From Candidatus Collierbacteria bacterium RIFCSPLOWO2_01_FULL_50_23 (GTDB taxonomy: Bacteria; Patescibacteriota; Microgenomatia; UBA1400; MFAQ01), in assembly GCA_001774555.1 (NCBI GenBank), contig MFAI01000036.1:1488-65487 (forward strand): 64,000 bases of DNA, in the 5' to 3' direction. A program made the translations under genes and the position numbers. Shown in pieces: positions 3,020 to 17,072 of this stretch. The notes under the pieces are model-generated. The model was not told the DNA's origin, ran no database searches, and saw nothing but the letters and a program-made list of their open reading frames with translations. Each line of letters opens with the position of its first letter. Position 1 is the first letter of the stretch.

Positions 3020-3033
3020 AACCCTATTCTAAC

Positions 3034-4365
3034 TCATATTTCCTTAATACTCACCACCGCCCAACCACCACTTCCCGGTTCGACAATAGCGCGGGCCATG
3101 CTCGGATCAAACTCGATCGTGGCGTTATTTTCCACAAAGATCTCCTTCGCCAAAATACCCGATAAAATCGAGTTGCTATTTACATAGACACAACCGTTAA
3201 GAGCTACGAAAACCACCGTCGCCGTATTCGAAGATGTCTTGATCGATGGATTACTACACTGATCAAAAGTATTTTCCGAGATAAAAACCAACCCAGCCCC
3301 GAACGAATTACGAAAAAACTCAACATTACTGCTCGTGACAATGCGGCCCTGGCCCGCCGGATTGTCCGGGCTACTGACCACAACCACAATCGAGTTGCCA
3401 CCAACGGTCTCGGCGGTATAAAAATCATTATTTGAGTCAATTGTGAAGTCTTTTGTGATCCAAACAGGACCGGTAAAGGTTAAGTTCGTACCACTCGGAA
3501 CGGTCAAGTTCCCAACGATCTTGATACCACCCAAGTAGTTCGATCCGGAAGTACAATCTAGCGAGGAGCCGTCAACGACACAGTCGCCATTCCATATGCT
3601 CGCCCCCTGCGCTTGGTTTTTCCAATAATTAGCATCTACGCTGCCCAGCGGTGTAGCCGGAGGACCGGCGGCAAGAGAAAAGGTTCCGGAATAGGGACAG
3701 TTGCTTGGCGGTTGGGGCGCCATGACATCCTCACCGACCCAGCAGGCGGTCAGAGAACTTGCCCATGCATCTTTTTGAACATAAACCCCGCCCGACGACG
3801 GGCTATCCAGACCTCCAATATAGTCCACAGCCCAGACACTTCCAAGAATTCTGGAGCCACTATTGCCGGAAGAGATCGACTTTCCCCTGATGGCTCCATT
3901 GGAGTAGATGTTGCCGCTGGTATTATTTGAGCCTCGAACCACGGTTTGACCTTCCAGACTAATACCCCCGACTCCGGCCTGAAGCGCAAAGGTGAAACTG
4001 GCCTTGCTTGAAGAAGGGGCCACAACGACCTCCAAATTTTTTATGATTCCGGCGGCATACCCTGTGGCCCTGATTGTTTTTTGATTGCTATCACCGCCAA
4101 CCTCTGCCGAAACAGTCGCGTTTCCCCCAATCGCCAGTTCGAGAGAATATGAAGGGCCGAAATCCTGTCTGGCCCGTAAGCGCAGCATCACCTCATCAAC
4201 CCCCGCCCAGGCGGCATACCATGCCTGGTCCGAAGCATGAATCGTTTCTTCGATTTGAATGTTCGCAACAGACAAGCTGCTGCTGGCAATAGCACTGGTG
4301 ATCGCCACCATACCGATTAGGAGAATCATCACCAGACTGGCCTGCCCAAAGTTATTTCTTTTCAT
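3034..4365 (-). CDS. PilX_N-like minor pilus component with a large Gly/Ser/Thr-rich beta-type C-terminal domain (putative pilus tip or adhesin protein)
   Basis: N-terminus MKRNNFGQASLVMILLIGMVAITSAIAS matches PilX N-terminal family architecture. The rest is low-complexity G/S/N/T-rich. Located inside the pilus operon. Confidence 0.45.
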   Translation of the reverse strand: MKRNNFGQASLVMILLIGMVAITSAIASSSLSVANIQIEETIHASDQAWYAAWAGVDEVMLRLRARQDFGPSYSLELAIGGNATVSAEVGGDSNQKTIRATGYAAGIIKNLEVVVAPSSSKASFTFALQAGVGGISLEGQTVVRGSNNTSGNIYSNGAIRGKSISSGNSGSRILGSVWAVDYIGGLDSPSSGGVYVQKDAWASSLTACWVGEDVMAPQPPSNCPYSGTFSLAAGPPATPLGSVDANYWKNQAQGASIWNGDCVVDGSSLDCTSGSNYLGGIKIVGNLTVPSGTNLTFTGPVWITKDFTIDSNNDFYTAETVGGNSIVVVVSSPDNPAGQGRIVTSSNVEFFRNSFGAGLVFISENTFDQCSNPSIKTSSNTATVVFVALNGCVYVNSNSILSGILAKEIFVENNATIEFDPSMARAIVEPGSGGWAVVSIKEI

Positions 4366-4910
4366 CAGTCGATTACATTAGTAAACGTATCCGAAAAACT
4401 AGTTTGATAGTTTTCAAAGGGGAAAATTGTGTTAATTACACCCGAAACGGTGACCTGTCTTCCTCCGGTTGCCAGAGAGGCAACAGAAAAGTTGAACGCA
4501 GAAATTTCAGAATAACTGGGAAAAAATAATATGGTCGGATCAGGATTGGGGGTGCAGCCACTGGCCAACGTCTGGCTATAACGTACATTCTTACTTATCG
4601 AGTCATAGACGAAGCTCCAGCACTCGGCCGCCGATGTAAGCAATAGGGAACTCGAGCTGCCGCCAACCACCGAGGTGTTTTGAATCGCTCTCGTCAGAGT
4701 CCGGGAGAAGACCCGCAAAGATTCCGTCGTTGTCGTCGTCGCCAAGACCTGATCCCGAAGCGAAAGAGTGGTAAAGACCAGCCAAACCGAGGCCACACTA
4801 ATTACGGACATGATACTCAGGGTGATGATCACTTCGAGCATTGAAGTTCCGGCCTGCCCGACTGAATGAGTATTTTTCGACGCGGACTGATAGTTGATTC
4901 GCATTTTCAT
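4365..4910 (-). CDS. Pseudopilin / minor pilin
   Basis: Prepilin-like N-terminus GTSMLEVIITLSIMSVISVAS with Glu at +5. ATGA overlap with the upstream gene. Confidence 0.55.
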   Translation of the reverse strand: MKMRINYQSASKNTHSVGQAGTSMLEVIITLSIMSVISVASVWLVFTTLSLRDQVLATTTTTESLRVFSRTLTRAIQNTSVVGGSSSSLLLTSAAECWSFVYDSISKNVRYSQTLASGCTPNPDPTILFFPSYSEISAFNFSVASLATGGRQVTVSGVINTIFPFENYQTSFSDTFTNVID

Positions 4911-5455
4911 CTCCAGTAAGTAACGAGGGTGTTTAGCTGATAATCTTTGTCTTGATTATTTTCCTTCCAAGTTACTTTTACCAAAGCATAAAAAGAGAGT
5001 CGGTCGATCAACCCTCCCGCCTCCACCACACCGCATACCGGAGTATCACAGACCATATCTCTCATCACCGGTGACAAAGTGATCGTTCTGGTAAACTGAC
5101 CGACGGTTTCAGATCCGGAAACCAACGTCCACAATCCGGAATTCATCACCGGATGAAAGTCGCCTAACCCCAAAGAATTAAAGTCCCCCGCGCGGACACT
5201 CAAAAGAGCCTCCATTCCTTCCTTTGCCAACAAGTTCGCCCGGCTTCTGAGTTTATTCAAACCAACACTGTTGCTGGCCAAACTATTTGCGGACAGGCTT
5301 CCCACCACAATTACCATCATCAGCGAGATCGATACCAATATTTCCACCAAAGAAAAACCCTGCCCGCCTGCTTGCCAGCCCGCAGAGCTGTGCTCAGCAT
5401 TGCTGGCGGGCAAAGCTTGCGGCGTGTCCTGATTTGACTTAGTTGACAATGCCAT
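4907..5455 (-). CDS. Pseudopilin / minor pilin
   Basis: GFSLVEILVSISLMMVIVVG prepilin methylation motif after a ~30 aa leader. Confidence 0.65.
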   Translation of the reverse strand: MALSTKSNQDTPQALPASNAEHSSAGWQAGGQGFSLVEILVSISLMMVIVVGSLSANSLASNSVGLNKLRSRANLLAKEGMEALLSVRAGDFNSLGLGDFHPVMNSGLWTLVSGSETVGQFTRTITLSPVMRDMVCDTPVCGVVEAGGLIDRLSFYALVKVTWKENNQDKDYQLNTLVTYWR

Positions 5456-5855
5456 TTTGTTGGAAAATTACCAATTCGGTATTACCCGTTGAGGTAAGTG
5501 TTAATTGACAAGACAGGACGCAACCGGTGAGTTGACCGGTCAGGGGAGTAAAACCCCAGTTAAATGAGCTGGGACTATAAGTGATACCGGCGGGTGATTG
5601 AAAACGAGCGATCTCTCCCAAGTTTGATCTCAAGATCACTATGCCGGAAACCAGACTTATTTCATAACTCAGCTGATCTTTATTAGCGATTGCCAGTTCC
5701 CTTCCATACTGAAGTTGGCTCCTGATCTCGTCACCGGCGCTCCGAAGCTTAAAAACCGCCTGAAGTTGAGATAGGCCGGCAACACCTGCGGCCGTAACTG
5801 CAACCGTGATCGCCACGACCAATACCACCTCGAGGAAGGTGAAGCCTTTGTTCAC
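5439..5855 (-). CDS. Pseudopilin / minor pilin (GspH/FimT-like size)
   Basis: MNKGFTFLEVVLVVAITVAV class III prepilin N-terminus. Confidence 0.7.
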   Translation of the reverse strand: MNKGFTFLEVVLVVAITVAVTAAGVAGLSQLQAVFKLRSAGDEIRSQLQYGRELAIANKDQLSYEISLVSGIVILRSNLGEIARFQSPAGITYSPSSFNWGFTPLTGQLTGCVLSCQLTLTSTGNTELVIFQQNGIVN

Positions 5856-7084
5856 TTCAGAGTCGAGGTAATTTTGTAAATAGGAACAATCACTATCAAA
5901 GCCAATCCCAAAACTCCGAAGCCCAAAACAAAAATCATCGCCGGCTCGATCAACGACAAAAGATTGCGTAGGGCCACTTCAAGTTCTTCCTCGTAATAGG
6001 CCGCCAGCCTGTCAAGTGTATTACCAAGGTTTCCGGTTTTTTCGGCACCCCTGATCAATCTAGTCATGATCGAGGGAAAAAGTTCTTTTTCGAAAAAAAC
6101 TGCATCGGCCAAACTTTTTCCGGCAGTCAAATGGTCGTTGATGCGAATGCAGGCATCGCGATAAAGCGGGTTACCCAAACTCGCCGCCAAAATATCGAAT
6201 GATGAAACAACTTCCACGCCATAAATATAAAATCCACCCAAAACCCGCGAAAAACGGGCCAGGTTGTAACGAATCACCAACGGCCCCACCACGGGAAGTC
6301 TCAAACTCAACCGGCCGAGAAGCCGATCCCCGTAAGAACTTCGCGAAAAACCGATCAGCGCAACAACCGAAAGCCCGACCAGTACCAGCATCAAATACCA
6401 ATACTCGGCAAAAAAGGCAACCGTACTTGCCAGCGCCAAGGTATATCCAGGTAGTTTTTGTCCCGAACTCTGGGCAAAAAGTAAAATTTTCGGAACAATA
6501 GACACACTAATAAAAATCATCACTGCAGCCATCGCGGTGACGACAACAATCGGATAGATCAAAGCTGATCGGACCTTGCTGGCAAGTTCGTTTTCCCGCC
6601 GCAACTGCATGGCCAAATAACCCAAGCTCTCAGCCAAGGTACCACTACCTTCACCCGCACGGACGACCGCCAGATACGCTGGGGGAAAAATTTTTGGAAA
6701 ACGGGCAAAGGCCTCAGAAAGTTTCACCCCCGACTGTACTTCCAAAATAATTTTACTGATCACTCTGCCGGAACCGGTGGCGCTTTTCTGATCAACAAAG
6801 GTAGACAGGGCGTCCAAAATCGGCAAACCGGCTTTGATCATCGAAGAAAGCTGATTGGTGAAAAGGATCTTCTCCGCAACTGACATTCTTTCGTTCAACT
6901 CCCGGTCCAGCCGAATGAAAAAATTTGTCAGGATCCCAATTTCCAGGGGGTTTCGAACTCGCAGGCTAACCACCGTCAATCCCTGTTCAGAGAGCATTGT
7001 TTGGGCCTCAAGCTCCGAGCCCGCCTGCAATCGCCCGCTTTTATATTCATCACGGCTGACGGCTTTGTATTCAAATTCTGGCAT
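5852..7084 (-). CDS. pilC: Type IV pilus inner-membrane platform protein PilC (GspF family)
   Basis: 410 aa with two GspF-type repeats and three TM regions, adjacent to PilB. Sequence resembles the T2SS F-domain family. Confidence 0.88.
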   Translation of the reverse strand: MPEFEYKAVSRDEYKSGRLQAGSELEAQTMLSEQGLTVVSLRVRNPLEIGILTNFFIRLDRELNERMSVAEKILFTNQLSSMIKAGLPILDALSTFVDQKSATGSGRVISKIILEVQSGVKLSEAFARFPKIFPPAYLAVVRAGEGSGTLAESLGYLAMQLRRENELASKVRSALIYPIVVVTAMAAVMIFISVSIVPKILLFAQSSGQKLPGYTLALASTVAFFAEYWYLMLVLVGLSVVALIGFSRSSYGDRLLGRLSLRLPVVGPLVIRYNLARFSRVLGGFYIYGVEVVSSFDILAASLGNPLYRDACIRINDHLTAGKSLADAVFFEKELFPSIMTRLIRGAEKTGNLGNTLDRLAAYYEEELEVALRNLLSLIEPAMIFVLGFGVLGLALIVIVPIYKITSTLK

Positions 7085-7092
7085 ATTTTATA

Positions 7093-8796
7093 TTAGTCAA
7101 AAGTAACTCTGAGCACTTCCTCGACCGTGGTCACTCCGGCGACGACTTTCGCCGCACCGTCAAACAGCATCGTATGCATCCCATTCCTGATCGCCGCGTC
7201 CTTTATTTTTTTGGCCGTCGACCTGTCCAAAATTAACTGGCGGATTTCATCATTAATCGTAAAAAGCTCATAAAGACCGGTCCTTCCCGAGAAACCGCTG
7301 TAGTTACAAAAATTACATCCCGGCGCCACCCTCGTCTCGGCCGGAATGATCTTGGCCAACAGTTCTTTCTCGGCTGGTTCGCTGACGCTGGCCACCAGGT
7401 AATTAACGACGTTCGGATCGGTCGCTTTTGAAACAGAGCAGTGGGTACACAGCTTCCGGACCAACCTTTGGGCGATCACCAATTCAAGCGTAGACGCCAC
7501 CAAGAAAGGTTCCGCGCCCAGATCAATTAACCTGGGGATGGCTCCCGAAGCATCATTGGTGTGCAAAGTCGAAAGCACCAGGTGACCCGTCATCGCCGCA
7601 TTTGTCGAAATGCCGGCGGTATCGGCGTCACGAATTTCTCCAACCATAACAATATCAGGGTCTTGCCGCAACAAAGAACGCAAACCCTCAGCGAAAGAGA
7701 AGTTAATTTGCGGGTTAACCTGAGTCTGATTGATTCTTCTGATGTGATTCTCGACCGGATCTTCGACTGTTGAGATATTCACCTCACCGGTATTTAACAG
7801 ATTAAGCATGGTATAAAGACTGGTCGTCTTGCCTGAGCCCGTTGGCCCCGTCAGCAGGATCAATCCATGCGGTCGTGTCAAAATGCGCTTGATCGTTACG
7901 ACACTGGCCGAGTCATAGCCCAGATTTTCCAAAGAAAATTCCGGTTCGCCGCTCTCCAACAAACGGAGGACTACTTTTTCACCCTCAACGGTCGGTAGTA
8001 CCGAAACACGCAAGGAAACAACGTCCCTCTCTTCCGACTCGAACTTGAACCGGCCGTCCTGGGGTAGCCGGCTCTCATCAAGTTTCAGGGTCGACAGGAT
8101 TTTGATGCGGGCCACGATCGCCGCGTGGAGATCCTTGGGTAAAGAAATCATGTCATGCAGGACGCCGTCAATACGGTAACGGACCAAAACCAGATCTGGT
8201 AAGGCTTCGATGTGGATATCAGACGCCTCCTGGATTACCGAATACTCGAGCATTTGGTTAACCGCCTCGACGACAGAAACATCCTCAGCCAATTCCTGAA
8301 GCGTCACGTGTCCGTGCCTTTTCTTGGCTTGTTCCAGTAACTTGGTAAAGGTATCCGCCAAACTGGATTTGTATTGATGTAATCCGAATTTTATGTCTCT
8401 TTCAAATGCCAGAAAGGGGATCACCGTCAAACCGGTAACCTTGCGGATAAAGTTGATCGTCTCCAGATCTTTCGGGTCCTGCATCGCCAGACGAAGCGCG
8501 CCGCCTTCGTGGGCAAAGGGGATCACCCGTCGTTCTCTGGCCAGCTCCTCTTTTACCAAAGTGAGGATCTCCTTTGGCACCATGATCCTTTTCAGGTCAA
8601 TGTACTCGATCCCCATTGACTTGGCCATCAAATTACCCAAAACATCCTTCGCGATCAGCCTCCTGCCAATCAAGACGTCGTGCAAAGGAACGGCGAGATG
8701 AACCGCTGTTTTTTGGGCATCGTCCAGATCCTTCTCTGGGGTCAGGTTGGCCGAACGCACCAGATTGTAGATGTCAAAAAACATAGGGGCAGCCAT
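7093..8796 (-). CDS. pilB: Type IV pilus assembly ATPase PilB (GspE family)
   Basis: 567 aa with Walker A LLTGPTGSGKTTSLYT, Asp box, Walker B, His box and the tetracysteine CTHC...CNFC motif typical of PilB/GspE. Confidence 0.9.
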   Translation of the reverse strand: MAAPMFFDIYNLVRSANLTPEKDLDDAQKTAVHLAVPLHDVLIGRRLIAKDVLGNLMAKSMGIEYIDLKRIMVPKEILTLVKEELARERRVIPFAHEGGALRLAMQDPKDLETINFIRKVTGLTVIPFLAFERDIKFGLHQYKSSLADTFTKLLEQAKKRHGHVTLQELAEDVSVVEAVNQMLEYSVIQEASDIHIEALPDLVLVRYRIDGVLHDMISLPKDLHAAIVARIKILSTLKLDESRLPQDGRFKFESEERDVVSLRVSVLPTVEGEKVVLRLLESGEPEFSLENLGYDSASVVTIKRILTRPHGLILLTGPTGSGKTTSLYTMLNLLNTGEVNISTVEDPVENHIRRINQTQVNPQINFSFAEGLRSLLRQDPDIVMVGEIRDADTAGISTNAAMTGHLVLSTLHTNDASGAIPRLIDLGAEPFLVASTLELVIAQRLVRKLCTHCSVSKATDPNVVNYLVASVSEPAEKELLAKIIPAETRVAPGCNFCNYSGFSGRTGLYELFTINDEIRQLILDRSTAKKIKDAAIRNGMHTMLFDGAAKVVAGVTTVEEVLRVTFD

Positions 8797-8876
8797 ATAG
8801 TTTAACTTTACTATATTTAGATGAGGCCCGCCTGCAACGCTATGCGTAGCATTGCGGGCAGGTAAAATATAATGAC

Positions 8877-9113
8877 GTGTACTACACTTACGTTTTGAAG
8901 AGCCAGTTTGATAACGAAATTTACATCGGTTGGACAGATAATCTCAGACATAGAATCGCCCAGCATAATTGTGGACAAGTTGAAGCTACCAAAAACCGAA
9001 GACCACTTAAGTTAATATATTACGAAGCCTGCTCAACAAGAGAAAAAGCAATTTTGAGGGAAAAACAGTTAAAGTCAGGATATGGTCGGGCGTATTTGAA
9101 GCGTAGGTTGTAA
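8877..9113 (+). CDS. GIY-YIG nuclease superfamily small protein (UPF0213-like)
   Basis: YTYVLKSQFDNEIYIGWTDNLRHRIAQHN matches the GIY-x10-YIG ... R ... H/N core of standalone GIY-YIG proteins. Confidence 0.7.
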   Translation: MYYTYVLKSQFDNEIYIGWTDNLRHRIAQHNCGQVEATKNRRPLKLIYYEACSTREKAILREKQLKSGYGRAYLKRRL

Positions 9114-9149
9114 AATATATCCCGAAGGGACCCCATTTGGGGCCCGCAT

Positions 9150-9221
9150 TGCCGAGTCGTCTAATGGTAGGACGTCTCCCTTTGGAGGAGAATATTCCTG
9201 GTTCGAATCCAGGCTCGGCAA
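9150..9221 (+). tRNA. tRNA-Gln (anticodon TTG)
   Basis: Manual cloverleaf fold: acceptor TGCCGAG/CTCGGCA, D-arm GTCT..GGAC, anticodon stem TCTCC/GGAGA with loop CTTTGGA, T-arm CCTGG-TTCGAAT-CCAGG. No encoded CCA. Confidence 0.8.
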
Positions 9222-9433
9222 CTCGAGGCTCGCAAGAATATCCTATAGTTGAATAATTTCCCGTTCTATGGTAAAGTATCCCCGTTGCACTTTAAGAAAT
9301 GCGTCGGCAGAACTCAGTCGCCTCATGGCTATTGACCTCTGCTGACATCAAGTTCACTTACTTCCTTTCGCCGGAGACGGAAGGAAACGTCGGCAGCCCA
9401 ATTCGCATTCACCCTTCAGAAAGAGGTTAAAAC

Positions 9434-10426
9434 ATGTCAGTGCTACTCACATCGGGATGGATCCAGCTCCTGCTGGTCCTCCTGGGCATCGTCGCCCTGG
9501 TTGCCACCCTCTGGGCGATCTTCAGCGACACGTTCAACCGGGGCGAAAAGGCCGTCGCTGTCATCCCGAGCCTCGTCCTCGTCCTCTCCGCTTCAGGCGT
9601 TTTATGGGGCCAGACGCACATCGTCGTCCGACCTAACCAGTACGTCCTGGTGATCGACCGCCAGACGGGCGAACCGATCATTCCCCTGCGCGGCGCCGGC
9701 GTCACCGAAGTTCCGCTCTGGACCTGGACACGCTACGAGTACCCGGCGCAGAAGGACTACCAGTGGTGCCCGACGTTCACCCCGTCGTCGAAAAACGGGG
9801 CGTCGCTAACCGTGGTGGTCTGCTTCACCACCGATGCCAGCGCGATCGACTGGACAGCCCAGTTTCGCAGTTTCAACGGCGACCAGGACGTGGTCATGGC
9901 CGGCTGGCAAAACGCCGTCCAGACGGACGTCGCTTCAGCCTTTTCGAAGTTCGACCCTCGCGACTTGACCAACAAACGCTCAGATGTCGAAACCGGGATT
10001 TTCCAGGCCACCTTCGAGTGGTTCAAGTCCCACGGCATCAGCGTCACCATGGTGGGGCTCAAGAACTGGCAGTTTGCGTCACAGGCGATCAACGACGCCT
10101 ACGACCAAGCCCAGCTCTCCCAAACCAAGGTGGACGTGGCCAACGCCGAAAAGGCAGCCGCACAGGTCGAGCAGGAGACTGCATTGATCCGCGCTGAAAC
10201 CCAGGTCAAGGTGGTCACTACCTTGGCCGCAGGTCAGCGAGCGGCCTGCAATACCGCCGGCATGGTCAGCGAAACTGCCTGCCTGGAATACCTCCAGCTC
10301 GTCTGGCTCAGTCAGGGCGGCATCGACCCCAGCGTGGTCGTGATCACCGGCGGCGGCGATGCCGCTCCCGTGATCGCCCTGCCCGCCGAAAACGTGCCGG
10401 CAAACTCGCCGACGCAATCACCGTAA
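9434..10426 (+). CDS. SPFH / band-7 (stomatin-prohibitin-HflK/C-like) domain membrane protein
   Basis: N-terminal TM, then a region with the SPFH pattern (VVRPNQYVLVIDRQTGE ... LTVVVCF ... a long Ala/Gln/Glu-rich coiled-coil tail). Unusually high GC (~60%+) compared with flanks. Confidence 0.55.
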   Translation: MSVLLTSGWIQLLLVLLGIVALVATLWAIFSDTFNRGEKAVAVIPSLVLVLSASGVLWGQTHIVVRPNQYVLVIDRQTGEPIIPLRGAGVTEVPLWTWTRYEYPAQKDYQWCPTFTPSSKNGASLTVVVCFTTDASAIDWTAQFRSFNGDQDVVMAGWQNAVQTDVASAFSKFDPRDLTNKRSDVETGIFQATFEWFKSHGISVTMVGLKNWQFASQAINDAYDQAQLSQTKVDVANAEKAAAQVEQETALIRAETQVKVVTTLAAGQRAACNTAGMVSETACLEYLQLVWLSQGGIDPSVVVITGGGDAAPVIALPAENVPANSPTQSP

Positions 10427-10558
10427 GTCACCGGCGCGTGGCCATCTGGCCTCTCCGACACGCGCAGGTGCAAAAATCCCCACCGGAGGTGGCATCAGAT
10501 GATGCTGCCCGAGGTGGGGTTTTACGTTCGCCAGCTGGGTAGGGGATATAATAGATAC

Positions 10559-11068
10559 ATGAGCCGACCAATCGCTATTTTTGGTTTACCGGAGGAGAAA
10601 TTTGTCAACAAAGTTTTCTCTCTGCGCCAGAAACTCCTCGAGGAGAAAAAACTGGAAGAGGCCGAGTCCACCACCCTTCCGCACCTCACCATTCTCGTCA
10701 ACACCACTCTCGACGATCTGGTCAGCAACGACTTCCTCATCCAAAAACTAACCCCCCTGGTTTCAGTCCTAAAACATTTCTCCCTCACTGTCACCGGTTT
10801 CGAGAAACTGGACACCAGTATCATCGCCAAATTCGATACCGGCCTCACCCGGAAACTGGTCTACCAAACGTCATCCGTCCTGCCCGGTTTCCGCGCCATC
10901 ACCACCGATTTTCTCAAGATCCTCCGCCGCACGGTTCCAACCGCAACCGACGAAGCCCTTGAAACGGTAAAGACTGAATTCAAAAGTGAAATTACTATCG
11001 ACCGCATTTGTATCGCCGGCGGCAGTCTCCGCCGGGAGGATGTTATCTGGACCGGCAAACTGGGTTAG
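10559..11068 (+). CDS. Hypothetical protein, weak 2H-phosphoesterase (LigT-like) resemblance
   Basis: Start chosen at MSRPIAIFGLPEE (internal ATG of the track ORF). IAIFGLP and PHLTILV (H-x-T-x) resemble LigT motif 1, but the second H-x-T/S-x motif is not in the expected position. Confidence 0.3.
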   Translation: MSRPIAIFGLPEEKFVNKVFSLRQKLLEEKKLEEAESTTLPHLTILVNTTLDDLVSNDFLIQKLTPLVSVLKHFSLTVTGFEKLDTSIIAKFDTGLTRKLVYQTSSVLPGFRAITTDFLKILRRTVPTATDEALETVKTEFKSEITIDRICIAGGSLRREDVIWTGKLG

Positions 11069-11082
11069 GATATATTAGAGTG

Positions 11083-11742
11083 ATGAAATCAACTAAGTTT
11101 GCCATCGTCATGCTGGCAGCTTTTTTTATTTTCTCTCTCCTGGTGCTCTCCGGAGTCCTCGCCCAAATTGACCAAGATATAACCGTCGTAATTCAAAGTC
11201 GCCTAACCAAAACACTCGACACCCCTCTTTCCTTCCTTAGTCTACTGGGAGCCGCCGAGATCACCACTTTTTTTCTCTTGATTGCCCTATTTTTCATGAA
11301 ACTCCACCGCAGCCTGATCACTCTACTAATGTTTGCCTTGGGTACCGGTATCGAGTTACTTGGAAAAACCTTTCTCTATCATCCCGGCCCCCCGAACATA
11401 TTCTTTCGTTACAACCTGGAGGTTCTCTTCCCTTCCGCCTATGTCCAAACCGGCCACTCATATCCCTCGGGCCACAGCTTCCGTACTGCCTTTCTGACCG
11501 TCCTGGTCGGCTATCTGATCTTCCAATCCAAAAAGTTATCACAAAGGAGCAAAAAGAGCCTCTCTCTTCTCTGCTATCTCTTCCTGTTTTTGATGTTGCT
11601 TTCCCGCGTCTCTCTAGGAGAACACTGGACCACCGACGTCATCGGCGGACTACTCCTGGGCGCCGGTCTGGCCGGCCTCTCCATTTCTCTGATTACTCCA
11701 GGCACAAACAGTGGCAATTTTGACTCAAAACTGGTAAAATAG
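11083..11742 (+). CDS. PAP2-family membrane phosphatase (phosphatidic acid / undecaprenyl-PP phosphatase type)
   Basis: Start at MKSTKF. Multi-TM protein with PAP2 signature motifs PSGHS and SRVSLGEHWTTDV (SR-x5-H-x3-D). Confidence 0.7.
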   Translation: MKSTKFAIVMLAAFFIFSLLVLSGVLAQIDQDITVVIQSRLTKTLDTPLSFLSLLGAAEITTFFLLIALFFMKLHRSLITLLMFALGTGIELLGKTFLYHPGPPNIFFRYNLEVLFPSAYVQTGHSYPSGHSFRTAFLTVLVGYLIFQSKKLSQRSKKSLSLLCYLFLFLMLLSRVSLGEHWTTDVIGGLLLGAGLAGLSISLITPGTNSGNFDSKLVK

Positions 11743-11823
11743 GGCCACTCGTTAACGCCTGCTCGGGCTGAATTAACCTGGCAACAGGTTTTTTTGTGCC
11801 AGAGAACGTAGACCCATAATAAT

Positions 11824-13656
11824 ATGACAGACAGAAAGATCAGAAACATCGCCGTCATTGCCCACGTTGACCACGGCAAAACGACCCTAATTGACGCCCT
11901 CTTGAAGCAGAGTCATATTTTTCGTGACAATCAGGCGGAAATGAGCCAGACCACCATCCTCGACAGCAACGACCTTGAACGGGAGAAGGGGATTACCATC
12001 CTGGCCAAAAACACCGCCATTTCCTACCACGACGTCAAGATCAACGTCATCGATACCCCGGGACACGCCGATTTTTCCGGCGAGGTCGAACGGACTCTCG
12101 GTATGGCCGACGGCGCCCTCCTGATCATCGACGCCCAGGAAGGACCGATGCCCCAGACCCGTTTTGTGCTAAAAAAAGCCTTTGAACTCAACCTGAAGAT
12201 CATCGTGGTCATAAATAAGATCGATAAACCCTACGCCCGCGTTCCTGAAGTGATCGACAAAACCGACAATCTCTTTCTCGAATTGGCCACCCGAGACGAA
12301 CAGCTCGATTTTCCGATTCTCTACGCAGTCGGCCGCGACGGCAAAGCCTTCAAAGAACTACCAACCGACTTCAACCAGCCGGGAGACATCACCCCGCTGA
12401 TGGACGCCATCCTGGAATACATTCCCTCACCGGAAAACTCACTCGAGGGCAGCTTCAAAATGCTCGTTTCTAGCCTCGATTACGACTCCCACAAAGGCCG
12501 TTACATCATCGGTAAAATTTTCCGCGGCAGCATCAAACCCGGCGACAAAGTTGTCCTAAGCGGAAACAATCGAAGTTACACCATTGAGACCGTCCAGCTT
12601 TCCCGCGGTCTTTCTCGCTACGAAACAAACGAGGCTTTTGCCGGGGATATTGTTGCCCTGACCGGAGTATCCGATGCTAAGATCGGTGACACTATTGCCA
12701 ATGCCGCGGATACCGAGCCCCTAGCCGCCCCCAAGCTCACCGAGCCAACTCTTCATATGACCATCGCCGCCAACACCTCGCCTTTCTCTGCCCGCGAAGG
12801 CCAGTTCACCACCAGCCGTCAGCTGGAAGACCGCCTCTACAAAGAGCTTGAAACCAATCTTTCCCTCAAACTCGAAAAGCTCGAAAGCGGTAAGTTCCAG
12901 ATCTCCGGCAAAGGCGAACTCCACCTGGCTATTCTTCTCGAAACCCTTCGTCGTCAGGGCTATGAAATGGAAGTCGGTAAACCCGAGGTCATCGTCAGGA
13001 CCATCGATGGCATCAGTCAGGAGCCGGTCGAAGAGGTCAGTATCATCGTCCCCAGTGAGTATCTGGGCACTATCACCCAGGAGATCGGCAAGCGTCTTGG
13101 GGTGATGGTCAAAATGGAGCCCATTTACGGCGTCGAGACCGAGTTCACCTATACCATCCCAACCAGGAACATCATCGGCCTAAGGAGCCTGCTTCTGACG
13201 GCTACCAAGGGCACCGCCGTGTTCAGTTCCCAGGTGACCGGCTACCAGCCTGTAGGCAACCCTCTGCCCAAGCTCCGCCGTGGAGTACTTATCTCCTCAG
13301 AAACCGGTGAGGCTCTGGCTTATGGCCTCCAAAACGCCCAGGGTCGTGGTATCACCTTCGTCGGGCCGGGAACGGAGGTCTACGAGGGCATGATCATCGG
13401 CGTCAACGCCAAGGAAGAGGATATTGAGATCAACGTCACCAAAGGCAAGAAGCTCACCAACATGCGCTCCCAAGCCTCAGATGGTGTCATCCAACTTACT
13501 CCGGCTACCGTCATGAGTTTGGAGCAGTCTTTGGACTTCCTCGAGGGCGATGAGCTCCTGGAGATCACCCCGGTCTCCCTCCGCTTACGCAAGAAGTATC
13601 TGACCGAGATCGATCGCAGACGTACCAACCGCGGACAATCGGCCATTTCCCAATAA
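11824..13656 (+). CDS. typA: Translational GTPase TypA/BipA
   Basis: 610 aa. G1 [10 protein letters not shown]3 DTPGH, G4 NKID. Domain order and length match BipA rather than EF-G or LepA. Confidence 0.9.
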
Positions 13657-13960: not shown

Positions 13961-14033
13961 GGAGCGGGTGAGGGGAGTCGGACCCCTGTCATCAGCTTGG
14001 AAAGCTGAGGTAATACCGTTATACGACACCCGC
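13961..14033 (-). tRNA. tRNA-Gly (anticodon TCC)
   Basis: Reverse complement reads GCGGGTG-TC-GTAT-AACGGTA-TTAC-C-TCAGC-TTTCCAA-GCTGA-TGAC-AGGGG-TCCGACT-CCCCT-CACCCGC-T-CC. Very close to canonical bacterial tRNA-Gly(UCC). T-loop TCCGACT is atypical. Confidence 0.8.
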
Positions 14034-14270
14034 TAATTCACTCGTATTTTACCAAATTTCGAGGGCAAAAAATTCGAAATAGCACTCTCGGGTTTTCTAA
14101 ACCATCTTGCCGCCACCAATCAGGAATGTTCTGTCGAGCTTCACCACCGGAAGAAAACGGTCCAAACCAACCAAGGATTTTTATATCCCTATCGCATTGA
14201 TACCTTCCGAGATAGAGATAAATACCAGGCTGAAACTTCTCGATATCAAATGCAGACTTCAGAACTTCCA

Positions 14271-14347
14271 TGGTCGGGGTGAGAGGACTCGAACCTCCGG
14301 CCTCTGCGTCCCAAACGCAGCGCTCTAGCCATCTGAGCTACACCCCG
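14271..14347 (-). tRNA. tRNA-Pro (anticodon TGG)
   Basis: Reverse complement: CGGGGTG-TA-GCTC-AGATGGCTA-GAGC-G-CTGCG-TTTGGGA-CGCAG-AGGCC-GGAGG-TTCGAGT-CCTCT-CACCCCG-A-CCA. Confidence 0.85.
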
Positions 14348-14399
14348 ATACGCCTATTTTAGCAAAGTCAGCCATGAATAGGTTAAAATATAAGGGTAT

Positions 14400-14477
14400 G
14401 GTGGGTGTAGCTTAGTTGGTTCAAAGCGCCTCCCTGTGGAGGAGGAGATCGCGGGTTCGACTCCCGTCACTCACCCA
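14400..14477 (+). tRNA. tRNA-His (anticodon GTG) with encoded G-1
   Basis: G(-1) precedes acceptor GTGGGTG, pairing with discriminator C73. Anticodon loop CTGTGGA. T-arm GCGGG-TTCGACT-CCCGT. Confidence 0.8.
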
Positions 14478-14564
14478 AAAAGGTGATATAGATTGATATA
14501 TCGGTATATACATGTCATTACACCTTGCTCGTCCAAAAAGTATGAATATATTAAGATAAATACT

Positions 14565-15368
14565 ATGAATGAAAAAGAAATTATAGGGATCATTAAAAGC
14601 ACGGTCTCTGTAGGTGTTACTGAGTCAATTGGACACAGAAGCTCAATGGAGGACACTCATCTTACAGTTACAAAACTCAATACCTCAAAAAACGATGGTG
14701 TGGAAAAATCCTTTTTTGCAGTGTTTGATGGTCACGGTGGGTCAGATGGCTCAAACCTGGCGAGAGAAACTGTTGAGGAAATAGTAATTGAAAATCTTAA
14801 CTTAGACAAACAGCCTGAGGAAGCACTGCGAGACACGTTTCACCAAATTGATAAAGGAATAGAAGATTCTGGTTTTCCATATGGATGCACCGCAGCCTCA
14901 GTTTTGTTAGAAGGAAACTCGCTAACGGTCGCAAATGTCGGTGACACCAGAGTTCTATTGATTAAACTCGGTGAAGGCGAAGAAACAGCTCAAAGGATTT
15001 CAAAAGATCATACCCTTAGTGATGAAGAAGAAGTGGAACGCGTTAAAGCTACAGGTGCTCAAATTGCAAGAGGAAGAATTATGGTTGGAAATGTCGGAAT
15101 AAACGTTGTTAGAGCTTTGGGGGATAAGTTTTTTGGTGAAGCAGTATCTGCTGACCCAACAGTATCAAAACAAATATTGGCTCCTGGTAAATACCGCGTA
15201 GTATTAGAATGCGATGGTGTTTGGCAGGCAGTCCCAGATGAAGACTTGGCGAAACTGATCACAGGAAAGAACCCTAAGGATGCAACCGAAGCACTTGTAA
15301 AAAAAGCAAATGACGATTGGGTGAATGACAACTTTACAGCGATTGTTGTAGATATTGAGATATTTTAG
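14565..15368 (+). CDS. PP2C-family (PPM) Ser/Thr protein phosphatase
   Basis: Start at MNEKEI. PPM motifs GHRSSMEDTH, FFAVFDGHGGSDGS, a later DG ... GD metal-binding region and a C-terminal D-x-DN. Low-GC (~38-40%) gene. Confidence 0.75.
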   Translation: MNEKEIIGIIKSTVSVGVTESIGHRSSMEDTHLTVTKLNTSKNDGVEKSFFAVFDGHGGSDGSNLARETVEEIVIENLNLDKQPEEALRDTFHQIDKGIEDSGFPYGCTAASVLLEGNSLTVANVGDTRVLLIKLGEGEETAQRISKDHTLSDEEEVERVKATGAQIARGRIMVGNVGINVVRALGDKFFGEAVSADPTVSKQILAPGKYRVVLECDGVWQAVPDEDLAKLITGKNPKDATEALVKKANDDWVNDNFTAIVVDIEIF

Positions 15369-15422
15369 GAATAACGGTCACATATATCTCCATCATTCTC
15401 TTTATCGCTGGCGTCGAGAAAA

Positions 15423-15505
15423 CCTCGGCCTTTCAGGCCGAGGATGAAAGACGCACTAAGGATATTTCTTCCTTGGCGAGAAACCCACGGCCTTTCAGGC
15501 CGGGG
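15423..15505. repeat. Tandem pair of near-identical GC hairpins (cctcggcc-tttc-aggccgagg and ccacggcc-tttc-aggccgggg) about 62 nt apart
   Basis: Direct inspection: two copies of a ~60 nt unit, each containing a GGCC-TTTC-GGCC hairpin, between the PP2C gene and the next ORF. No downstream U-tract. Confidence 0.45.
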
Positions 15506-15511
15506 AGTTTC

Positions 15512-15563
15512 ATTTGCGCACAAATCGGTTCCAAGAACTCATCATCAAGAACCCCAAAACACC
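15512..15563. repeat. Copy 1 of a ~52 bp direct repeat (atttgcgcacaaatcggttccaagaactcatc...gaaccccaaaacac), spanning the TTG start of ORF 15514..16290
   Basis: About 88% identical to copy 2 at 16984..17034, same orientation. Confidence 0.55.
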
Positions 15564-16290
15564 CCATAACCTTGTAGGGAGCTCCAAAAATGGTATCATT
15601 TCGAGCATGGGGAAACCAAAAGAAGCCCAAGGCACACCCGAGCAAACCACTTTCGAAAATACCCTTCAATTAAGATTCAGAGGATTAGTGCTCGACATGC
15701 TTTTTACTCGATGGCACTCGGAGGAGCTTGATCGACTGCTTGATTTATATCAAAAAGGGGATCTTGATGCTTGTTATATTCTCGGCTTCGTATCAACTCA
15801 CCATGAGGCAAAGGTATGTCCTGAGCACTATGGTGCTGGCCGAAACCTTTGGGACTACGTTACCAAAGAGATGTATCCACTACTACAAGCTAAATATGGA
15901 AACCAGGTTGGCTCGGACATATACCGGCAACTGTTCGGCTTCCTTTTTGAAAACCAAGACCTAGTAGCAGATGGAGAGCTAAACCAAACCTTGGTCCTAT
16001 CCTGGCTAAGTAGTCTCGAGGCTGCACTCGGACACATTGAACAGACTATTTTCATTTCAGCGGGTAATTCGACCAAGACTTATCTTGAATCCAAAATCCA
16101 AGAAACTGAGGCTAACGTTCAAGTCTTTAGAATCGCTCTCGTAGAAAACGGTGGGGAATTGAAAAATGGCAGAAGGGTCGATCAAGAATACATTGATGGT
16201 CTAGAAAAGAAAATTAGGTCCTACAATGAGGCGTTAAACCGTCTGAAAGACTTTCAAACAAGCGTCGGGAAAATCATTTTGGAAAGCTAA
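15514..16290 (+). CDS. Hypothetical protein (no recognisable domain)
   Basis: 258 aa ORF with a TTG start in the track; alternative ATG starts lie downstream. Low GC. No motif recognised. Confidence 0.35.
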   Translation: MRTNRFQELIIKNPKTPHNLVGSSKNGIISSMGKPKEAQGTPEQTTFENTLQLRFRGLVLDMLFTRWHSEELDRLLDLYQKGDLDACYILGFVSTHHEAKVCPEHYGAGRNLWDYVTKEMYPLLQAKYGNQVGSDIYRQLFGFLFENQDLVADGELNQTLVLSWLSSLEAALGHIEQTIFISAGNSTKTYLESKIQETEANVQVFRIALVENGGELKNGRRVDQEYIDGLEKKIRSYNEALNRLKDFQTSVGKIILES

Positions 16291-16367
16291 ATAAATTCTA
16301 CACTCATCCAGCCAGTGACCCAATAATATGATATATATTGATATATCAATGTATATCCAAATGTAAA

Positions 16368-17034: not shown

Positions 17035-17072
17035 TTGGCAAGGTTTAATAAATCAACTGAGGCCTGAATAAA

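What the first reader, a model, noticed from the sequence alone, without database searches (positions are those of the whole stretch)
9222..10440. High-GC insertion downstream of tRNA-Gln encoding an SPFH/band-7 protein
Immediately 3' of tRNA-Gln(TTG), a ~1.2 kb block with conspicuously high GC and GC3 encodes one SPFH-domain membrane protein. The six-frame track shows many overlapping spurious ORFs in this interval, which is itself a symptom of high GC. Composition matches neither the flanking pilus/GIY-YIG genes nor the downstream genes. A tRNA-adjacent single-gene block of foreign composition suggests horizontal acquisition. If the organism is an epibiont of high-GC Actinobacteria, as Saccharibacteria are, the host is a plausible donor.
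Basis: partly seen in the sequence, partly recalled or inferred. Interest (0 to 1): 0.5.

Follow-up and report, generated by a model that had tools for sequence, protein, structure and literature searches.

The report
GC-rich SPFH membrane-scaffold gene beside tRNA-Gln
A single, unusually GC-rich gene next to a tRNA in a Collierbacteria (CPR) genome encodes a divergent prohibitin/stomatin-like membrane scaffold. Its odd composition is an old trait confined to the reading frame and shared by relatives, not evidence of recent theft from an actinobacterial host.

Summary
ORF 9434-10426 is the GC-richest kilobase of the window (GC 0.625, GC3 0.82, against ORF means of 0.49 and 0.53). It lies 211 nt after tRNA-Gln(UUG) and encodes an SPFH-fold protein.

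- **Organism:** Candidatus Collierbacteria (Microgenomates), not Saccharibacteria.
- **Homologues:** they are rare, and every named one is CPR. None is actinobacterial, phage or plasmid.
- **Where the GC excess sits:** in the reading frame only. The conserved promoter and leader are 47% GC.
- **Strand bias:** the gene follows the host's C>G strand bias.
- **Family trait:** the excess recurs in homologues that sit in other 42-50% GC backgrounds.
- **Age:** it is old. A relative about 19% diverged keeps the same SPFH to neighbour junction and the same GC step, with equal synonymous divergence in both genes (0.61 and 0.63).

The tRNA-Gln neighbourhood is nevertheless variable. One Collierbacteria genome lacks the gene there, and another relative has it on the other side of the tRNA. 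No integrase or att repeat is present.

Best reading: a stand-alone accessory transcription unit (promoter, structured leader, CDS, terminator) for a CPR-restricted SPFH scaffold, with GC3 held high by a gene-specific force. Ancient transfer with slow amelioration remains possible. Interest is modest.

The parts
9150..9222 (+). tRNA-Gln (anticodon UUG). It is the conserved anchor of a variable region.
   Evidence: ARAGORN and Rfam tRNA 65.6 bits. It is 92.5% identical to the tRNA-Gln of L001, which lies downstream of the SPFH module there. The 3' half is not duplicated anywhere in the window.
9237..9277 (+). Promoter: a conserved AATATCCTATAGTTGA block, -35 TTGAAT (9249-9254), a 17-nt spacer, and -10 TAAAGT (9272-9277, preceded by TGg).
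   Evidence: I read it from the sequence; the built-in sigma-70 scan did not call it. The 16-nt block is identical in L001, where the promoter is TTGACA-17-TAAAAT. A CCTATA(G) element next to TTG is present in all four aligned loci. The same CTATAG(G)TTGAAT-17-TAAAAT layout occurs at window 20476-20486 (-) and at L007 5166. Promoter function is inferred, not shown.
9303..9346 (+). Leader hairpin P1 (GUCGGCAGA...UCUGCUGAC with an inner stem), about 25 nt downstream of the -10 element.
   Evidence: RNAfold on the segment gives -25.7 kcal/mol. The same hairpin folds in L001 (-24.8), L003 (-29.5) and L090 (-34.5), with changes on both arms such as GG/CU to AA/UU and GUGA/UCAC to GUAA/UUAC. There is no Rfam match. 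Only four sequences are available, so the covariation support is suggestive.
9362..9386 (+). Leader hairpin P2 (UUCCUUUCG...CGGAAGGAA).
   Evidence: It appears in the MFE and centroid folds of the leader. L001 has a hairpin at the equivalent place, but the sequence is not conserved.
9388..9396 (+). Second copy of CGTCGGCAG, identical to the 5' arm of P1 (9302-9310), just upstream of the ribosome-binding site.
   Evidence: Read from the sequence. Related copies are present in L001, L003 and L090. It could pair with the 3' arm of P1 instead; that is inference only.
9421..9426 (+). Shine-Dalgarno AAGAGG, 7 nt before the ATG.
   Evidence: Read from the sequence. L003 and L090 have GGAGG at the same place.
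9434..10426 (+). CDS of a 330-aa divergent SPFH/prohibitin-like protein. It has two N-terminal hydrophobic helices (8-30, 36-61), an alpha/beta SPFH domain (62-214), a long helix (217-274), a second helix (280-294), and a C-terminal VVVITGGGDAAPVIALP tail. Four cysteines are conserved (C112, C130, C272, C283).
   Evidence: Composition. Pfam Band_7 25.6 bits, and 34 of 49 family members hit Band_7. AF2 model pLDDT 90.8. Foldseek against PDB: prohibitin 8rrh E 1.7e-12, then HflK/C, stomatin, erlin, QmcA and flotillin. The family profile matches PDB prohibitin at E 1e-7. Conserved columns.
10472..10523 (+). Intrinsic, bidirectional-looking terminator: an A-tract, a CCCCACC...GGTGGGG outer stem with an inner stem, then TTTT.
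   Evidence: RNAfold gives -30.6 kcal/mol. Equivalent terminators follow the gene in L001 (-29.0), L089 (-32.8), L003 and L002, with compensatory inner-stem changes. The consensus scan flags part of it.
10559..11068 (+). Neighbour gene p169 (called as 189 aa from 10499, but that start lies inside the terminator). It has ordinary GC and serves as the co-inherited comparator.
   Evidence: L004 gene call at 1568-2077. Weak 2H-phosphoesterase-like Pfam hit, E 0.075. It is collinear with the SPFH gene in L089, with equal four-fold-site divergence (0.63 against 0.61).

Best explanation
The block is a self-contained, monocistronic transcription unit. It consists of a sigma-70-type promoter directly after tRNA-Gln, a leader of about 150 nt with a conserved 5' stem-loop, a good ribosome-binding site, the CDS, and a strong terminator.

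**Protein.** It encodes a divergent SPFH (stomatin/prohibitin/flotillin/HflK-C) protein of a small family seen so far only in CPR/Patescibacteria. By analogy with solved SPFH assemblies, I infer that the protein is anchored by its N-terminal helical hairpin and oligomerises through the long helix and the C-terminal tail. This would form a ring or cage on the membrane that corrals or regulates other membrane proteins. The partner is unknown, and no NfeD or FtsH gene is linked.

**Composition.** The GC-richness is real but belongs to the reading frame, mainly third codon positions (T and A replaced by C and G). It has been kept for a long time in this lineage and in homologues that sit in other mid- to low-GC genomes. 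It most likely reflects a gene-specific force, such as selection on codons or mRNA of a strongly expressed structural protein, or GC-biased repair at a recombination-prone accessory locus. It is not the residue of a recent import.

**Locus.** The gene lies in a region around tRNA-Gln whose content differs between relatives. It is therefore an accessory gene gained or lost by indel, probably exchanged among CPR, without an integrase-type element.

**Shown:** the anatomy, the fold, the composition pattern, co-divergence with the neighbour gene, and presence/absence among relatives.
**Inferred:** high expression, cage formation, and the cause of the GC3 excess.
For: - **Fold and family:**
- **Stand-alone unit conserved as a whole:** blastn homology between the window and L001 starts 14 nt after the tRNA and includes the roughly 200-nt upstream region. 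Promoter and leader are conserved, and so is the terminator. No neighbour gene is conserved across 8 loci.
- **GC excess confined to the CDS:** leader GC is 0.469, 0.371 and 0.423 in three lineages, against CDS GC3 of 0.82, 0.67 and 0.69.
- **Family-wide excess over local ORFs:**
  - window z = 3.1
  - L006 z = 3.6
  - L001 z = 3.2
  - L007 z = 2.0
  - L003
  - L089 0.79 against 0.56
- **Old and co-inherited:** window and L089 are collinear at 80.7% nt identity. Four-fold-site divergence is 0.61 for SPFH and 0.63 for neighbour p189, and amino-acid identity is 86% and 85%. Between the window and L001, four-fold identity is 0.44 against 0.34 expected at saturation, yet both copies stay far above their backgrounds.
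- **Host strand bias present:** four-fold (G-C)/(G+C) is -0.32, against -0.43 +/- 0.19 for + strand host ORFs. A genome-wide C>G strand disparity in Collierbacteria is published (PMC7143001).
- **Native genes lean the same way:** typA has GC3 0.68 here and 0.665 in relative L009. A second gene behind the same promoter type is also GC-rich (ORF 19574-20383, GC3 0.72).
- **Taxonomy of homologues:** only 7 in the 5.8-billion-protein index. The exhaustive HMMER scan of 1.84 billion representatives gave 104 hits, 58 of them at E <= 1e-10. The named ones are Collierbacteria, Saccharimonadales and Dojkabacteria.
- **Variable locus:**
Against: - The cause of the GC3 excess is not demonstrated.
- The window has no ribosomal-protein or EF-Tu genes to calibrate expression-linked codon bias. 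The best proxies reach only GC3 0.58 (trigger factor) and 0.68 (typA).
- Four homologues show little or no excess: L002 +0.05, L091, L092, and the phage-like L008. A universal selective cause does not predict this.
- GC1 and GC2 are also raised (0.60 and 0.46), as expected for a gene from a genome of about 62% GC.
- Polarising S->W against W->S changes with outgroups gave 15:3. That is what S-rich saturated outgroups would give anyway, so the test is uninformative.
- Most family members are unnamed metagenome proteins. Restriction to CPR rests on 3 named clusters and on the context of a few contigs.
- Oligomerisation, topology and expression level are inferred, not tested.
Confidence: 0.55

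Rival explanations
1. Ancient horizontal transfer from a GC-richer donor, such as another CPR lineage, an unknown bacterium or a phage. The transfer went into an ancestor of the window/L089/L001/L003 clade and was followed by slow, incomplete amelioration. The GC-rich CDS would then be a historical residue.
For: - The GC1/GC2/GC3 triple (0.60/0.46/0.82) fits a genome of about 62% GC.
- The clade pattern fits: window, L089, L001, L003 and L090 are high, while the more distant L002, L091 and L092 are near background.
- Distribution is patchy and rare, and the gene is absent at the syntenic site of L012.
- Distant relatives exist in phages: phrog_200 at 53 bits, and the phage-like contig L008.
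- Lateral transfer is documented as common for prokaryotic SPFH genes (PMC2636767).
- With per-lineage synonymous divergence of about 0.3 since the L089 split, a neutral model still allows an ancestral GC3 of about 0.9. That is my own rough two-state estimate.
Against: - No GC-rich donor or close outside homologue was found in 15 billion proteins.
- The co-transferred promoter and leader are not GC-rich (0.37-0.47).
- Four-fold sites already carry the host strand skew.
- Window and L001 copies are near synonymous saturation, yet both remain +0.22 to +0.28 above background. A neutral model with vertical descent would then need an impossible ancestral GC3 above 1 (plus inference).
- More distant homologues in other backgrounds (L006, L007) are also GC3-enriched. 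That would require repeated transfers from unseen GC-rich sources.
Confidence: 0.27
2. GC-biased gene conversion or repair at a recombination-prone accessory locus. Frequent homologous exchange anchored on the conserved tRNA-Gln would raise GC3 of the exchanged gene without any selection on codons.
For: - The module sits immediately beside a conserved tRNA, on either side of it in different relatives, in a region of variable gene content.
- The excess is strongest at synonymous sites.
- A second GC3-rich patch lies among genes with no Pfam family (19.6-23.3 kb).
Against: - The immediately adjacent p169 gene, co-inherited over the same time, has ordinary GC3 (0.56), and the step between the two genes is sharp.
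- The leader inside the same module is not GC-rich.
- SPFH and p169 have equal synonymous divergence between the window and L089, so there is no sign of separate exchange of the SPFH gene.
- Homologues away from any tRNA (L006, L007) also show the excess.
Confidence: 0.1
3. Recent acquisition from a high-GC actinobacterial host through a tRNA-targeting island.
For: High GC and GC3, the position next to a tRNA, and single-gene extent.
Against: - The organism is Collierbacteria, not Saccharibacteria.
- There is no actinobacterial or any named non-CPR close homologue.
- The same junction and the same GC step occur in a relative with synonymous divergence of about 0.6, equal to that of the neighbour gene.
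- Host-like strand skew and host-like noncoding GC.
- G at four-fold sites is barely raised (0.28 against 0.25), unlike actinobacterial codon usage, where G3 and C3 are both high (the comparison is from general knowledge).
- No integrase, no att repeat, and no phage or plasmid match.
Confidence: 0.03
4. Assembly or binning artefact: a chimeric contig that joins foreign high-GC DNA to a CPR contig.
For: An abrupt compositional step within a metagenome-assembled genome. One sister assembly's contig (L004) starts only 448 nt upstream of the gene.
Against: - The same sequence across both junctions is present in two further assemblies at 99.96-99.99% identity.
- The right junction is present in the independent JGI contig L089.
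- A tRNA-Gln junction is present in L001.
Confidence: 0.01

Closest known systems
Prohibitin / HflK-HflC membrane cages (PDB 8rrh, 9o9z, 7vhq, 7wi3, 9cz2)
   Same: These are the best structural and profile matches: Foldseek E 1.7e-12 to 1e-9 and profile against PDB sequences E 1e-7. The order of parts is the same: N-terminal membrane anchor, alpha/beta SPFH domain, long coiled-coil helix, short second helix, and a hydrophobic C-terminal strand-like tail.
   Different: - Sequence identity is only 12-18%.
- It has two N-terminal hydrophobic helices instead of one.
- It has four family-conserved cysteines.
- It is a single gene rather than an HflK/HflC or PHB1/PHB2 pair.
- No ftsH gene is linked in the window stretch examined.
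- There is no NCBIfam hit, and the Pfam score is just above threshold.
Stomatin / QmcA-type SPFH proteins with an NfeD partner (PDB 8z5g, 9oh9; SPFH1/2/5 operons of Hinderhofer et al. 2009, PMC2636767)
   Same: SPFH fold. The N-terminal hydrophobic hairpin is reminiscent of the stomatin hairpin (general knowledge).
   Different: There is no NfeD gene or any conserved neighbour in 8 loci. It is monocistronic, with its own promoter and terminator.
Phage-encoded SPFH/Band-7 proteins (PHROG phrog_200 'lipoprotein'; BFVD Band-7 proteins)
   Same: It gives a full-length HMM match to phrog_200 (53 bits, residues 12-324), stronger than the match to Pfam Band_7. A distant family member (P0053) lies on a phage-like, tRNA-rich contig (L008). 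Viral Band-7 models match at E about 1e-12.
   Different: tblastn finds no match in 50,697 phage genomes at E <= 1e-3. No phage genes lie next to the window gene. The viral structural matches are no closer than the cellular ones.
tRNA-associated genomic islands / integrative elements
   Same: It is adjacent to a tRNA gene, has atypical composition, and shows presence/absence among relatives.
   Different: There is no integrase, no duplicated tRNA 3' end and no mobility genes. In L001 the module lies 5' of the tRNA. The compositional anomaly covers the CDS only.

Membership tests
SPFH / Band 7 superfamily (PF01145) | Match to the Band_7 profile above Pfam's gathering score | tested here: met
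   25.6 bits against a cutoff of 23.6, covering residues 64-242 and profile positions 2-171 of 176. 34 of 49 family members match, best E 3.4e-13.
SPFH / Band 7 superfamily (PF01145) | Alpha/beta SPFH fold followed by a long coiled-coil helix and a C-terminal oligomerisation segment | tested here: met
   AF2 model pLDDT 90.8, pTM 0.70. The top 30 or more PDB matches are all SPFH proteins, with prohibitin at E 1.7e-12.
SPFH / Band 7 superfamily (PF01145) | N-terminal membrane anchor | tested here: met
   Two hydrophobic helices at 8-30 and 36-61 in the model and the sequence. Their topology was not determined.
SPFH / Band 7 superfamily (PF01145) | Assembly into large rings or cages on a membrane | not testable with these tools
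   Only a monomer was modelled. This needs multimer modelling or cryo-EM.
NfeD-linked SPFH operons (SPFH1/2/5, PMC2636767) | Adjacent nfeD-type partner gene in the same operon | tested here: not met
   The neighbours are GIY-YIG, a 2H-like p169 and PAP2. There is no conserved neighbour across 8 loci. The gene has its own promoter and terminator.
HflK/C-prohibitin type (FtsH-associated) | Paired paralogous subunits and functional or genomic link to FtsH | tested here: inconclusive
   There is a single gene and no paralogue next to it. ftsH was not seen in the parts of the window annotated, and the physical interaction is untestable here.
tRNA-integrating genomic island | Integrase or recombinase gene within the island | tested here: not met
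   The block holds one gene. The flanks encode GIY-YIG, p169 and PAP2.
tRNA-integrating genomic island | Direct repeat of the tRNA 3' end at the distal border (attL/attR) | tested here: not met
   There is no second copy of the last 22 nt of the tRNA within 3 mismatches anywhere in the window. No relevant direct repeat lies in 8800-11200.
tRNA-integrating genomic island | Empty site in a relative | tested here: met
   L012 (Collierbacteria GW2011_GWA2_42_17) has the 281-aa gene, tRNA-Gln and typA with no SPFH gene between them. L001 has the module between the homologous 288-aa gene and the tRNA.
Recently transferred gene from a high-GC donor | Closest homologues in the donor group (Actinobacteria) | tested here: not met
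   the closest relatives are CPR or unnamed metagenome proteins. The nearest is 85% identical (L089), syntenic, and has the same composition.
Recently transferred gene from a high-GC donor | Less time in the genome than its neighbours (no co-divergence; donor-like noncoding DNA and skew) | tested here: not met
   Four-fold divergence equals that of the neighbour (0.61 against 0.63). Leader GC is 0.47. The host strand skew is present.

The most novel reading that the evidence does not exclude
The reading frame of this CPR-specific SPFH gene may be actively held at a GC3 20-30 points above its host genomes across lineages that have diverged to synonymous saturation. Such a gene-specific compositional set-point would mimic the classic signature of horizontal transfer. 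The gene would also be controlled through a previously undescribed conserved structured 5' leader (P1 hairpin plus a repeated CGUCGGCAG element). If so, it would be both a caution for composition-based HGT calls in CPR genomes and a new cis-regulatory RNA attached to a new SPFH subfamily.
Probability: 0.25. Interest if true: 0.45.

Novelty: new member of a known kind. Interest (0 to 1): 0.3.

Why it matters
**Host inference.** In episymbiotic CPR bacteria, atypical composition next to a tRNA is tempting evidence for gene theft from the host, and this case shows the inference can fail. The anomaly is frame-limited, old and family-wide, and the homologues are all CPR. It gives no clue to the host of Collierbacteria.

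**New SPFH family.** It defines a small, divergent, CPR-restricted SPFH/prohibitin-like family. The family has a two-helix anchor and four conserved cysteines, lacks an NfeD partner, and is packaged as an autonomous, probably strongly expressed unit. This is a candidate membrane-organising scaffold in organisms whose envelope biology is almost unknown.

**Limits.** SPFH proteins are ubiquitous and known to be laterally mobile (PMC2636767), so the finding is incremental.

Tried and rejected
- **Public-collection scans for close relatives.** Scans of GTDB species genomes, JGI metagenome contigs and IMG/VR with the close-family alignment found nothing.
- **Word-indexed searches.** Two further searches with alignments returned almost only the sequences already known. 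Taxonomy of the wider family therefore rests on three named clusters from 30 cluster look-ups.
- **AFDB fold search.** Not available.
- **Mobile-element and RNA-family links.**
  - tblastn against phages and plasmids: no match at E <= 1e-3 and only noise at E <= 10.
  - PADLOC: no defence-system match.
  - NCBIfam: no match.
  - Rfam on 8800-10700: only the tRNA.
- **Overlapping or antisense gene as the cause of the composition.** Rejected. Alternative-frame open stretches are as long as synonymous shuffles give.
- **Translational selection inferred from C-ending codons alone.** Weakened. The C>G asymmetry is the strand bias of the genome: + strand ORFs are C-rich and - strand ORFs are G-rich (PMC7143001).
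- **Polarising synonymous changes with outgroups.** Uninformative because the outgroups are saturated and S-rich.
- **Conserved partner gene.** None found.
- **att-site search.** Negative.
Full report
**1. What is there**

The window matches Candidatus Collierbacteria bacterium RIFCSPLOWO2_01_FULL_50_23. The product of ORF 9434-10426 is 100% identical to its protein A3A84_02010. Two sister assemblies carry the same DNA at 99.96-99.99% identity (L004, L005). The organism therefore belongs to the Microgenomates side of the CPR, not to Saccharibacteria.

tRNA-Gln(UUG) lies at 9150-9222. ORF 9434-10426 (+, 330 aa) has GC 0.625 and GC1/2/3 of 0.604/0.456/0.816. The 63 long ORFs of the window average GC 0.487 (sd 0.048) and GC3 0.536 (sd 0.099). 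The GC-richest 993-nt stretch of the whole 64 kb starts at 9472, and only the 22.5-23.7 kb region also exceeds 0.60.

A 150-nt profile shows the rise starting at the start codon and ending at about 10520. The 211 nt between the tRNA and the ATG have GC 0.469. The many alternative-frame ORFs inside the gene are no longer than synonymous shuffles give. They are by-products of composition.

**2. Anatomy**

Homology between the window and the closest full-length relative (L001, 73% protein identity) begins 14 nt after the tRNA. It covers about 200 nt of noncoding DNA as well as the gene. That upstream part contains the following elements.
- A 16-nt block identical in both loci (AATATCCTATAGTTGA).
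- A promoter: TTGAAT, 17 nt, TAAAGT in the window, and TTGACA, 17 nt, TAAAAT in L001.
- A stem-loop (9303-9346) that folds in four lineages at -25 to -34 kcal/mol, with changes on both arms.
- A second hairpin, a second copy of the CGTCGGCAG arm, and a Shine-Dalgarno sequence.

After the stop codon, every homologous locus examined has a strong A-tract/stem/T-tract terminator (-29 to -33 kcal/mol) with compensatory stem changes.

No neighbouring gene is conserved among 8 loci. The thing is an autonomous one-gene transcription unit. Rfam has no match for the leader.

**3. The protein**

Evidence for the fold:
- Pfam Band_7 is just above threshold (25.6 against 23.6 bits), and 34 of 49 family members match.
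- A profile of the family finds prohibitins among solved structures (E 1e-7).
- An AlphaFold2 model built on 49 sequences is confident (pLDDT 90.8).

The model shows these parts:

| Residues | Feature |
|---|---|
| 8-30, 36-61 | two N-terminal hydrophobic helices |
| 62-214 | alpha/beta SPFH domain |
| 217-274 | 58-residue helix |
| 280-294 | second helix |
| C-terminus | low-confidence tail (VVVITGGGDAAPVIALP) |

All top PDB matches are SPFH cage proteins: prohibitin 8rrh at E 1.7e-12, then HflK/C, stomatin, erlin, QmcA and flotillin.

Four cysteines (C112, C130, C272, C283) are invariant in the close family. There is no NCBIfam model, no NfeD partner and no paralogous partner. By analogy I infer a membrane-anchored ring or cage scaffold. 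This is not shown.

**4. Who else has it**

- The word-indexed search of 5.8 billion proteins found only 7 relatives.
- An exhaustive HMMER scan of 1.84 billion cluster representatives found 104, with 58 at E <= 1e-10.
- Of 30 clusters looked up, three carry organism names: Collierbacteria, Saccharimonadales and Dojkabacteria. All three are CPR.
- tblastn found nothing in 50,697 phage genomes or 72,556 plasmids at E <= 1e-3. PADLOC found no defence link.
- A PHROG family (phrog_200) matches over the full length at 53 bits. One distant member (P0053, 25% identity) lies on a phage-like contig with ten tRNA genes (L008). Viral SPFH models are no closer than cellular ones.

Nothing points to Actinobacteria.

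**5. What the composition means**

Four results argue against a recent import.

(a) The excess is confined to the reading frame. The promoter and leader, which travel with the gene, have GC 0.469, 0.371 and 0.423 in the window, L001 and L003. The corresponding CDS GC3 values are 0.82, 0.67 and 0.69.

(b) The gene carries the host's strand asymmetry. Four-fold sites have C 0.54 and G 0.28, a skew of -0.32. The + strand ORFs of the window average -0.43 +/- 0.19 and the - strand ORFs +0.02 +/- 0.18. A genome-wide C-over-G strand disparity has been described for Collierbacteria (PMC7143001). G at four-fold sites is hardly raised over background (0.28 against 0.25). The shift is mostly T and A to C.

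(c) The excess is a family trait.

| Locus | Gene GC3 | Local ORF GC3 |
|---|---|---|
| L089 | 0.79 | 0.56 |
| L001 | 0.67 | 0.43 |
| L003 | 0.69 | 0.50-0.61 |
| L006 (42% identity) | 0.69 | 0.49 |
| L007 (27% identity) | 0.66 | 0.54 |

Four members show little or none of the excess: L002, L091, L092 and L008.

(d) It is old. L089, from an unrelated JGI metagenome, is collinear with window 9880-11092 at 80.7% nt identity. It spans the SPFH 3' half, the terminator and the neighbour gene. Four-fold-site divergence is 0.61 in the SPFH gene and 0.63 in the neighbour, and protein identity is 86% and 85%. The two genes have therefore shared their history since that split, and the sharp GC step between them has persisted. 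Window and L001 copies are close to synonymous saturation (four-fold identity 0.44 against 0.34 expected), yet both remain 0.22-0.28 above their backgrounds.

**6. The locus is nevertheless variable**

A scan of GTDB species genomes with the neighbouring typA gene recovered Collierbacteria GW2011_GWA2_42_17 (L012).
- **L012:** a 281-aa gene, tRNA-Gln(ttg), two unrelated genes, typA, then tRNA Arg/Leu/Gly/Pro/His. This is the same frame as the window, but no SPFH gene is present.
- **L001:** the homologous 288-aa gene (40% identity, E 2e-54 to the L012 gene), the SPFH module, then tRNA-Gln. Here the module is on the 5' side of the tRNA.
- **Window:** the C-terminus of the 288-aa homologue lies at 3-110. 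It is followed by an 8.7-kb pilus/T2SS cluster and a GIY-YIG gene before the tRNA. The SPFH gene, p169 and PAP2 lie after it.
- **L009:** this relative (typA 87% identical, four-fold divergence 0.82) has PAP2 and typA but different genes upstream of PAP2.

The region on both sides of tRNA-Gln therefore gains and loses genes. No integrase, no duplicated tRNA end and no mobility gene accompany the module.

**7. Explanation and rivals**

*Best reading (confidence about 0.55).* This is a long-resident accessory transcription unit for a CPR-restricted SPFH scaffold, and its reading frame is kept GC3-rich by a gene-specific force.
- For selection on codons or mRNA of a strongly expressed protein: the strong promoter architecture, the 5' stem-loop, the good ribosome-binding site and the strong terminator. 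Native typA also has raised GC3 (0.68, conserved in L009). A second gene behind the same CTATAG(G)TTGAAT-17-TAAAAT promoter is also GC-rich (GC3 0.72).
- Against it: the window holds no ribosomal-protein genes to calibrate, and four homologues lack the excess.

*Ancient transfer with slow amelioration (about 0.27).* This fits the GC1/2/3 triple and the clade pattern. It needs an unseen donor. It also struggles with the host-like leader, the host-like skew and the near-saturated window-L001 pair.

*GC-biased conversion at a recombination hot spot (about 0.10).* This is hard to square with the sharp step to the co-inherited neighbour.

*Recent transfer from an actinobacterial host (about 0.03) and assembly chimera (about 0.01).* Both are contradicted by the results above.

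**8. Comparison with what is known**

It is a member of the SPFH superfamily by profile and by fold. It is not a member of the NfeD-linked operon types, because that defining feature was tested and is absent. Membership of the HflK/C-prohibitin functional type cannot be decided here.

Lateral transfer and patchy occurrence of prokaryotic SPFH genes are already documented (PMC2636767). The finding is a new, divergent member of a known kind. It has two unexplained extras: the persistent frame-limited GC3 excess and the conserved structured leader.

**9. Verdict**

Interest is 0.3.

Noticed in passing
window 19570-23320: A second GC-rich stretch (GC 0.55-0.63) made of ORFs with no family assignment. 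ORF 19574-20383 (-) is 269 aa with GC3 0.72. ORFs 20569-21216 and 21080-22420 (+) overlap in different frames and look like one glycoside-hydrolase-2-like gene split by a frameshift (weak Glyco_hydro_2_N2 hit, E 9e-4). ORF 22632-23312 (+) has GC3 0.828, the highest in the window. This may be a better candidate for foreign DNA than the SPFH gene.
   Followed up: partly
window 9243-9254; 20476-20486 (-); 24209-24219 (+); L007 5166-5176: The motif CTATAG(G)TTGA(AT) recurs. Two exact CTATAGNTTGA sites are found where 0.05 is expected. At 20476 (-) and at L007 5166 it forms the same promoter layout as at the SPFH gene, namely motif/-35, 17 nt, then TAAAAT or TATAAT. At 24209 it lies just after a TTGCTT-17-TATAAT promoter. 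In L002 the element is the palindrome TCCTATAGGA. It could be a shared operator or an extended -35 element.
   Followed up: partly
window 1-64000: GC skew is negative in almost every 1-kb stretch along the whole window, so cumulative skew falls almost continuously. Four-fold sites are C-rich in + strand ORFs and G-rich or neutral in - strand ORFs. This matches the genome-wide one-directional C>G strand disparity reported for Collierbacteria and relatives (PMC7143001).
   Followed up: partly
window 3-9113 compared with L012 7587-8467: In L012 a 281-aa gene is followed 34 nt later by tRNA-Gln. In the window, 8.7 kb holding a type IV pilus/T2SS cluster on the - strand (179-8796) plus a small GIY-YIG gene (8877-9113) lies between the homologous gene end (3-110) and the tRNA. 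The 5' side of the tRNA is therefore also a gene-gain site.
   Followed up: partly
L008 (Logan SRR26541423 contig, 73.7 kb), 1-13629: This contig looks phage-like. It has ten tRNA genes within 3 kb, many small ORFs without Pfam families, and PHROG hits to terminase small subunit, an anti-restriction protein and a Cas-associated nuclease. It encodes a distant member of the SPFH family (P0053) with ordinary GC3.
   Followed up: partly
window 9434-10426 (protein): The protein matches PHROG phrog_200 (annotated 'lipoprotein') over its full length at 53 bits. That is clearly better than its Pfam Band_7 score of 25.6 bits. The PHROG annotation is probably a misnomer for a phage SPFH family.
   Followed up: no
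window 10499-10558: The 189-aa ORF that starts at 10499 begins inside the SPFH terminator stem. The 169-aa start at 10559, used in the L004 gene call, is preceded by a TATAAT box at about 10541 and is more plausible. The protein has a weak 2H-phosphoesterase-like signature (PHLTIL; Pfam 2_5_RNA_ligase2 E 0.075).
   Followed up: partly
window 26005-26433 compared with L011, L012 and L013: A 142-aa coiled-coil-like ORF has the highest four-fold C content in the window. Its homologues lie directly upstream of typA in three relatives, but here it is 12 kb downstream of typA. The typA neighbourhood has been rearranged in this genome.
   Followed up: no
window 14000-18100, 35200-35900, 38000-40800: These low-GC patches (0.39-0.44, GC3 0.31-0.44) hold PP2C, an acetyltransferase and unassigned ORFs. 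The genome is a compositional mosaic in both directions.
   Followed up: no
L009, L010, L013, L016, L020 (record titles): Contigs whose typA is 66-87% identical to the Collierbacteria gene are titled 'uncultured Pseudomonadales bacterium' in their public records. L016 also has CPR-like tRNA neighbours. These MAG labels are probably wrong.
   Followed up: no
L009 51-606: A small gene pair (72 aa and 118 aa, overlapping by 20 nt) lies upstream of a nuclease-like 169-aa gene and PAP2, at the position where the window has SPFH and p169. I judged it a toxin-antitoxin-like pair by eye only.
   Followed up: no
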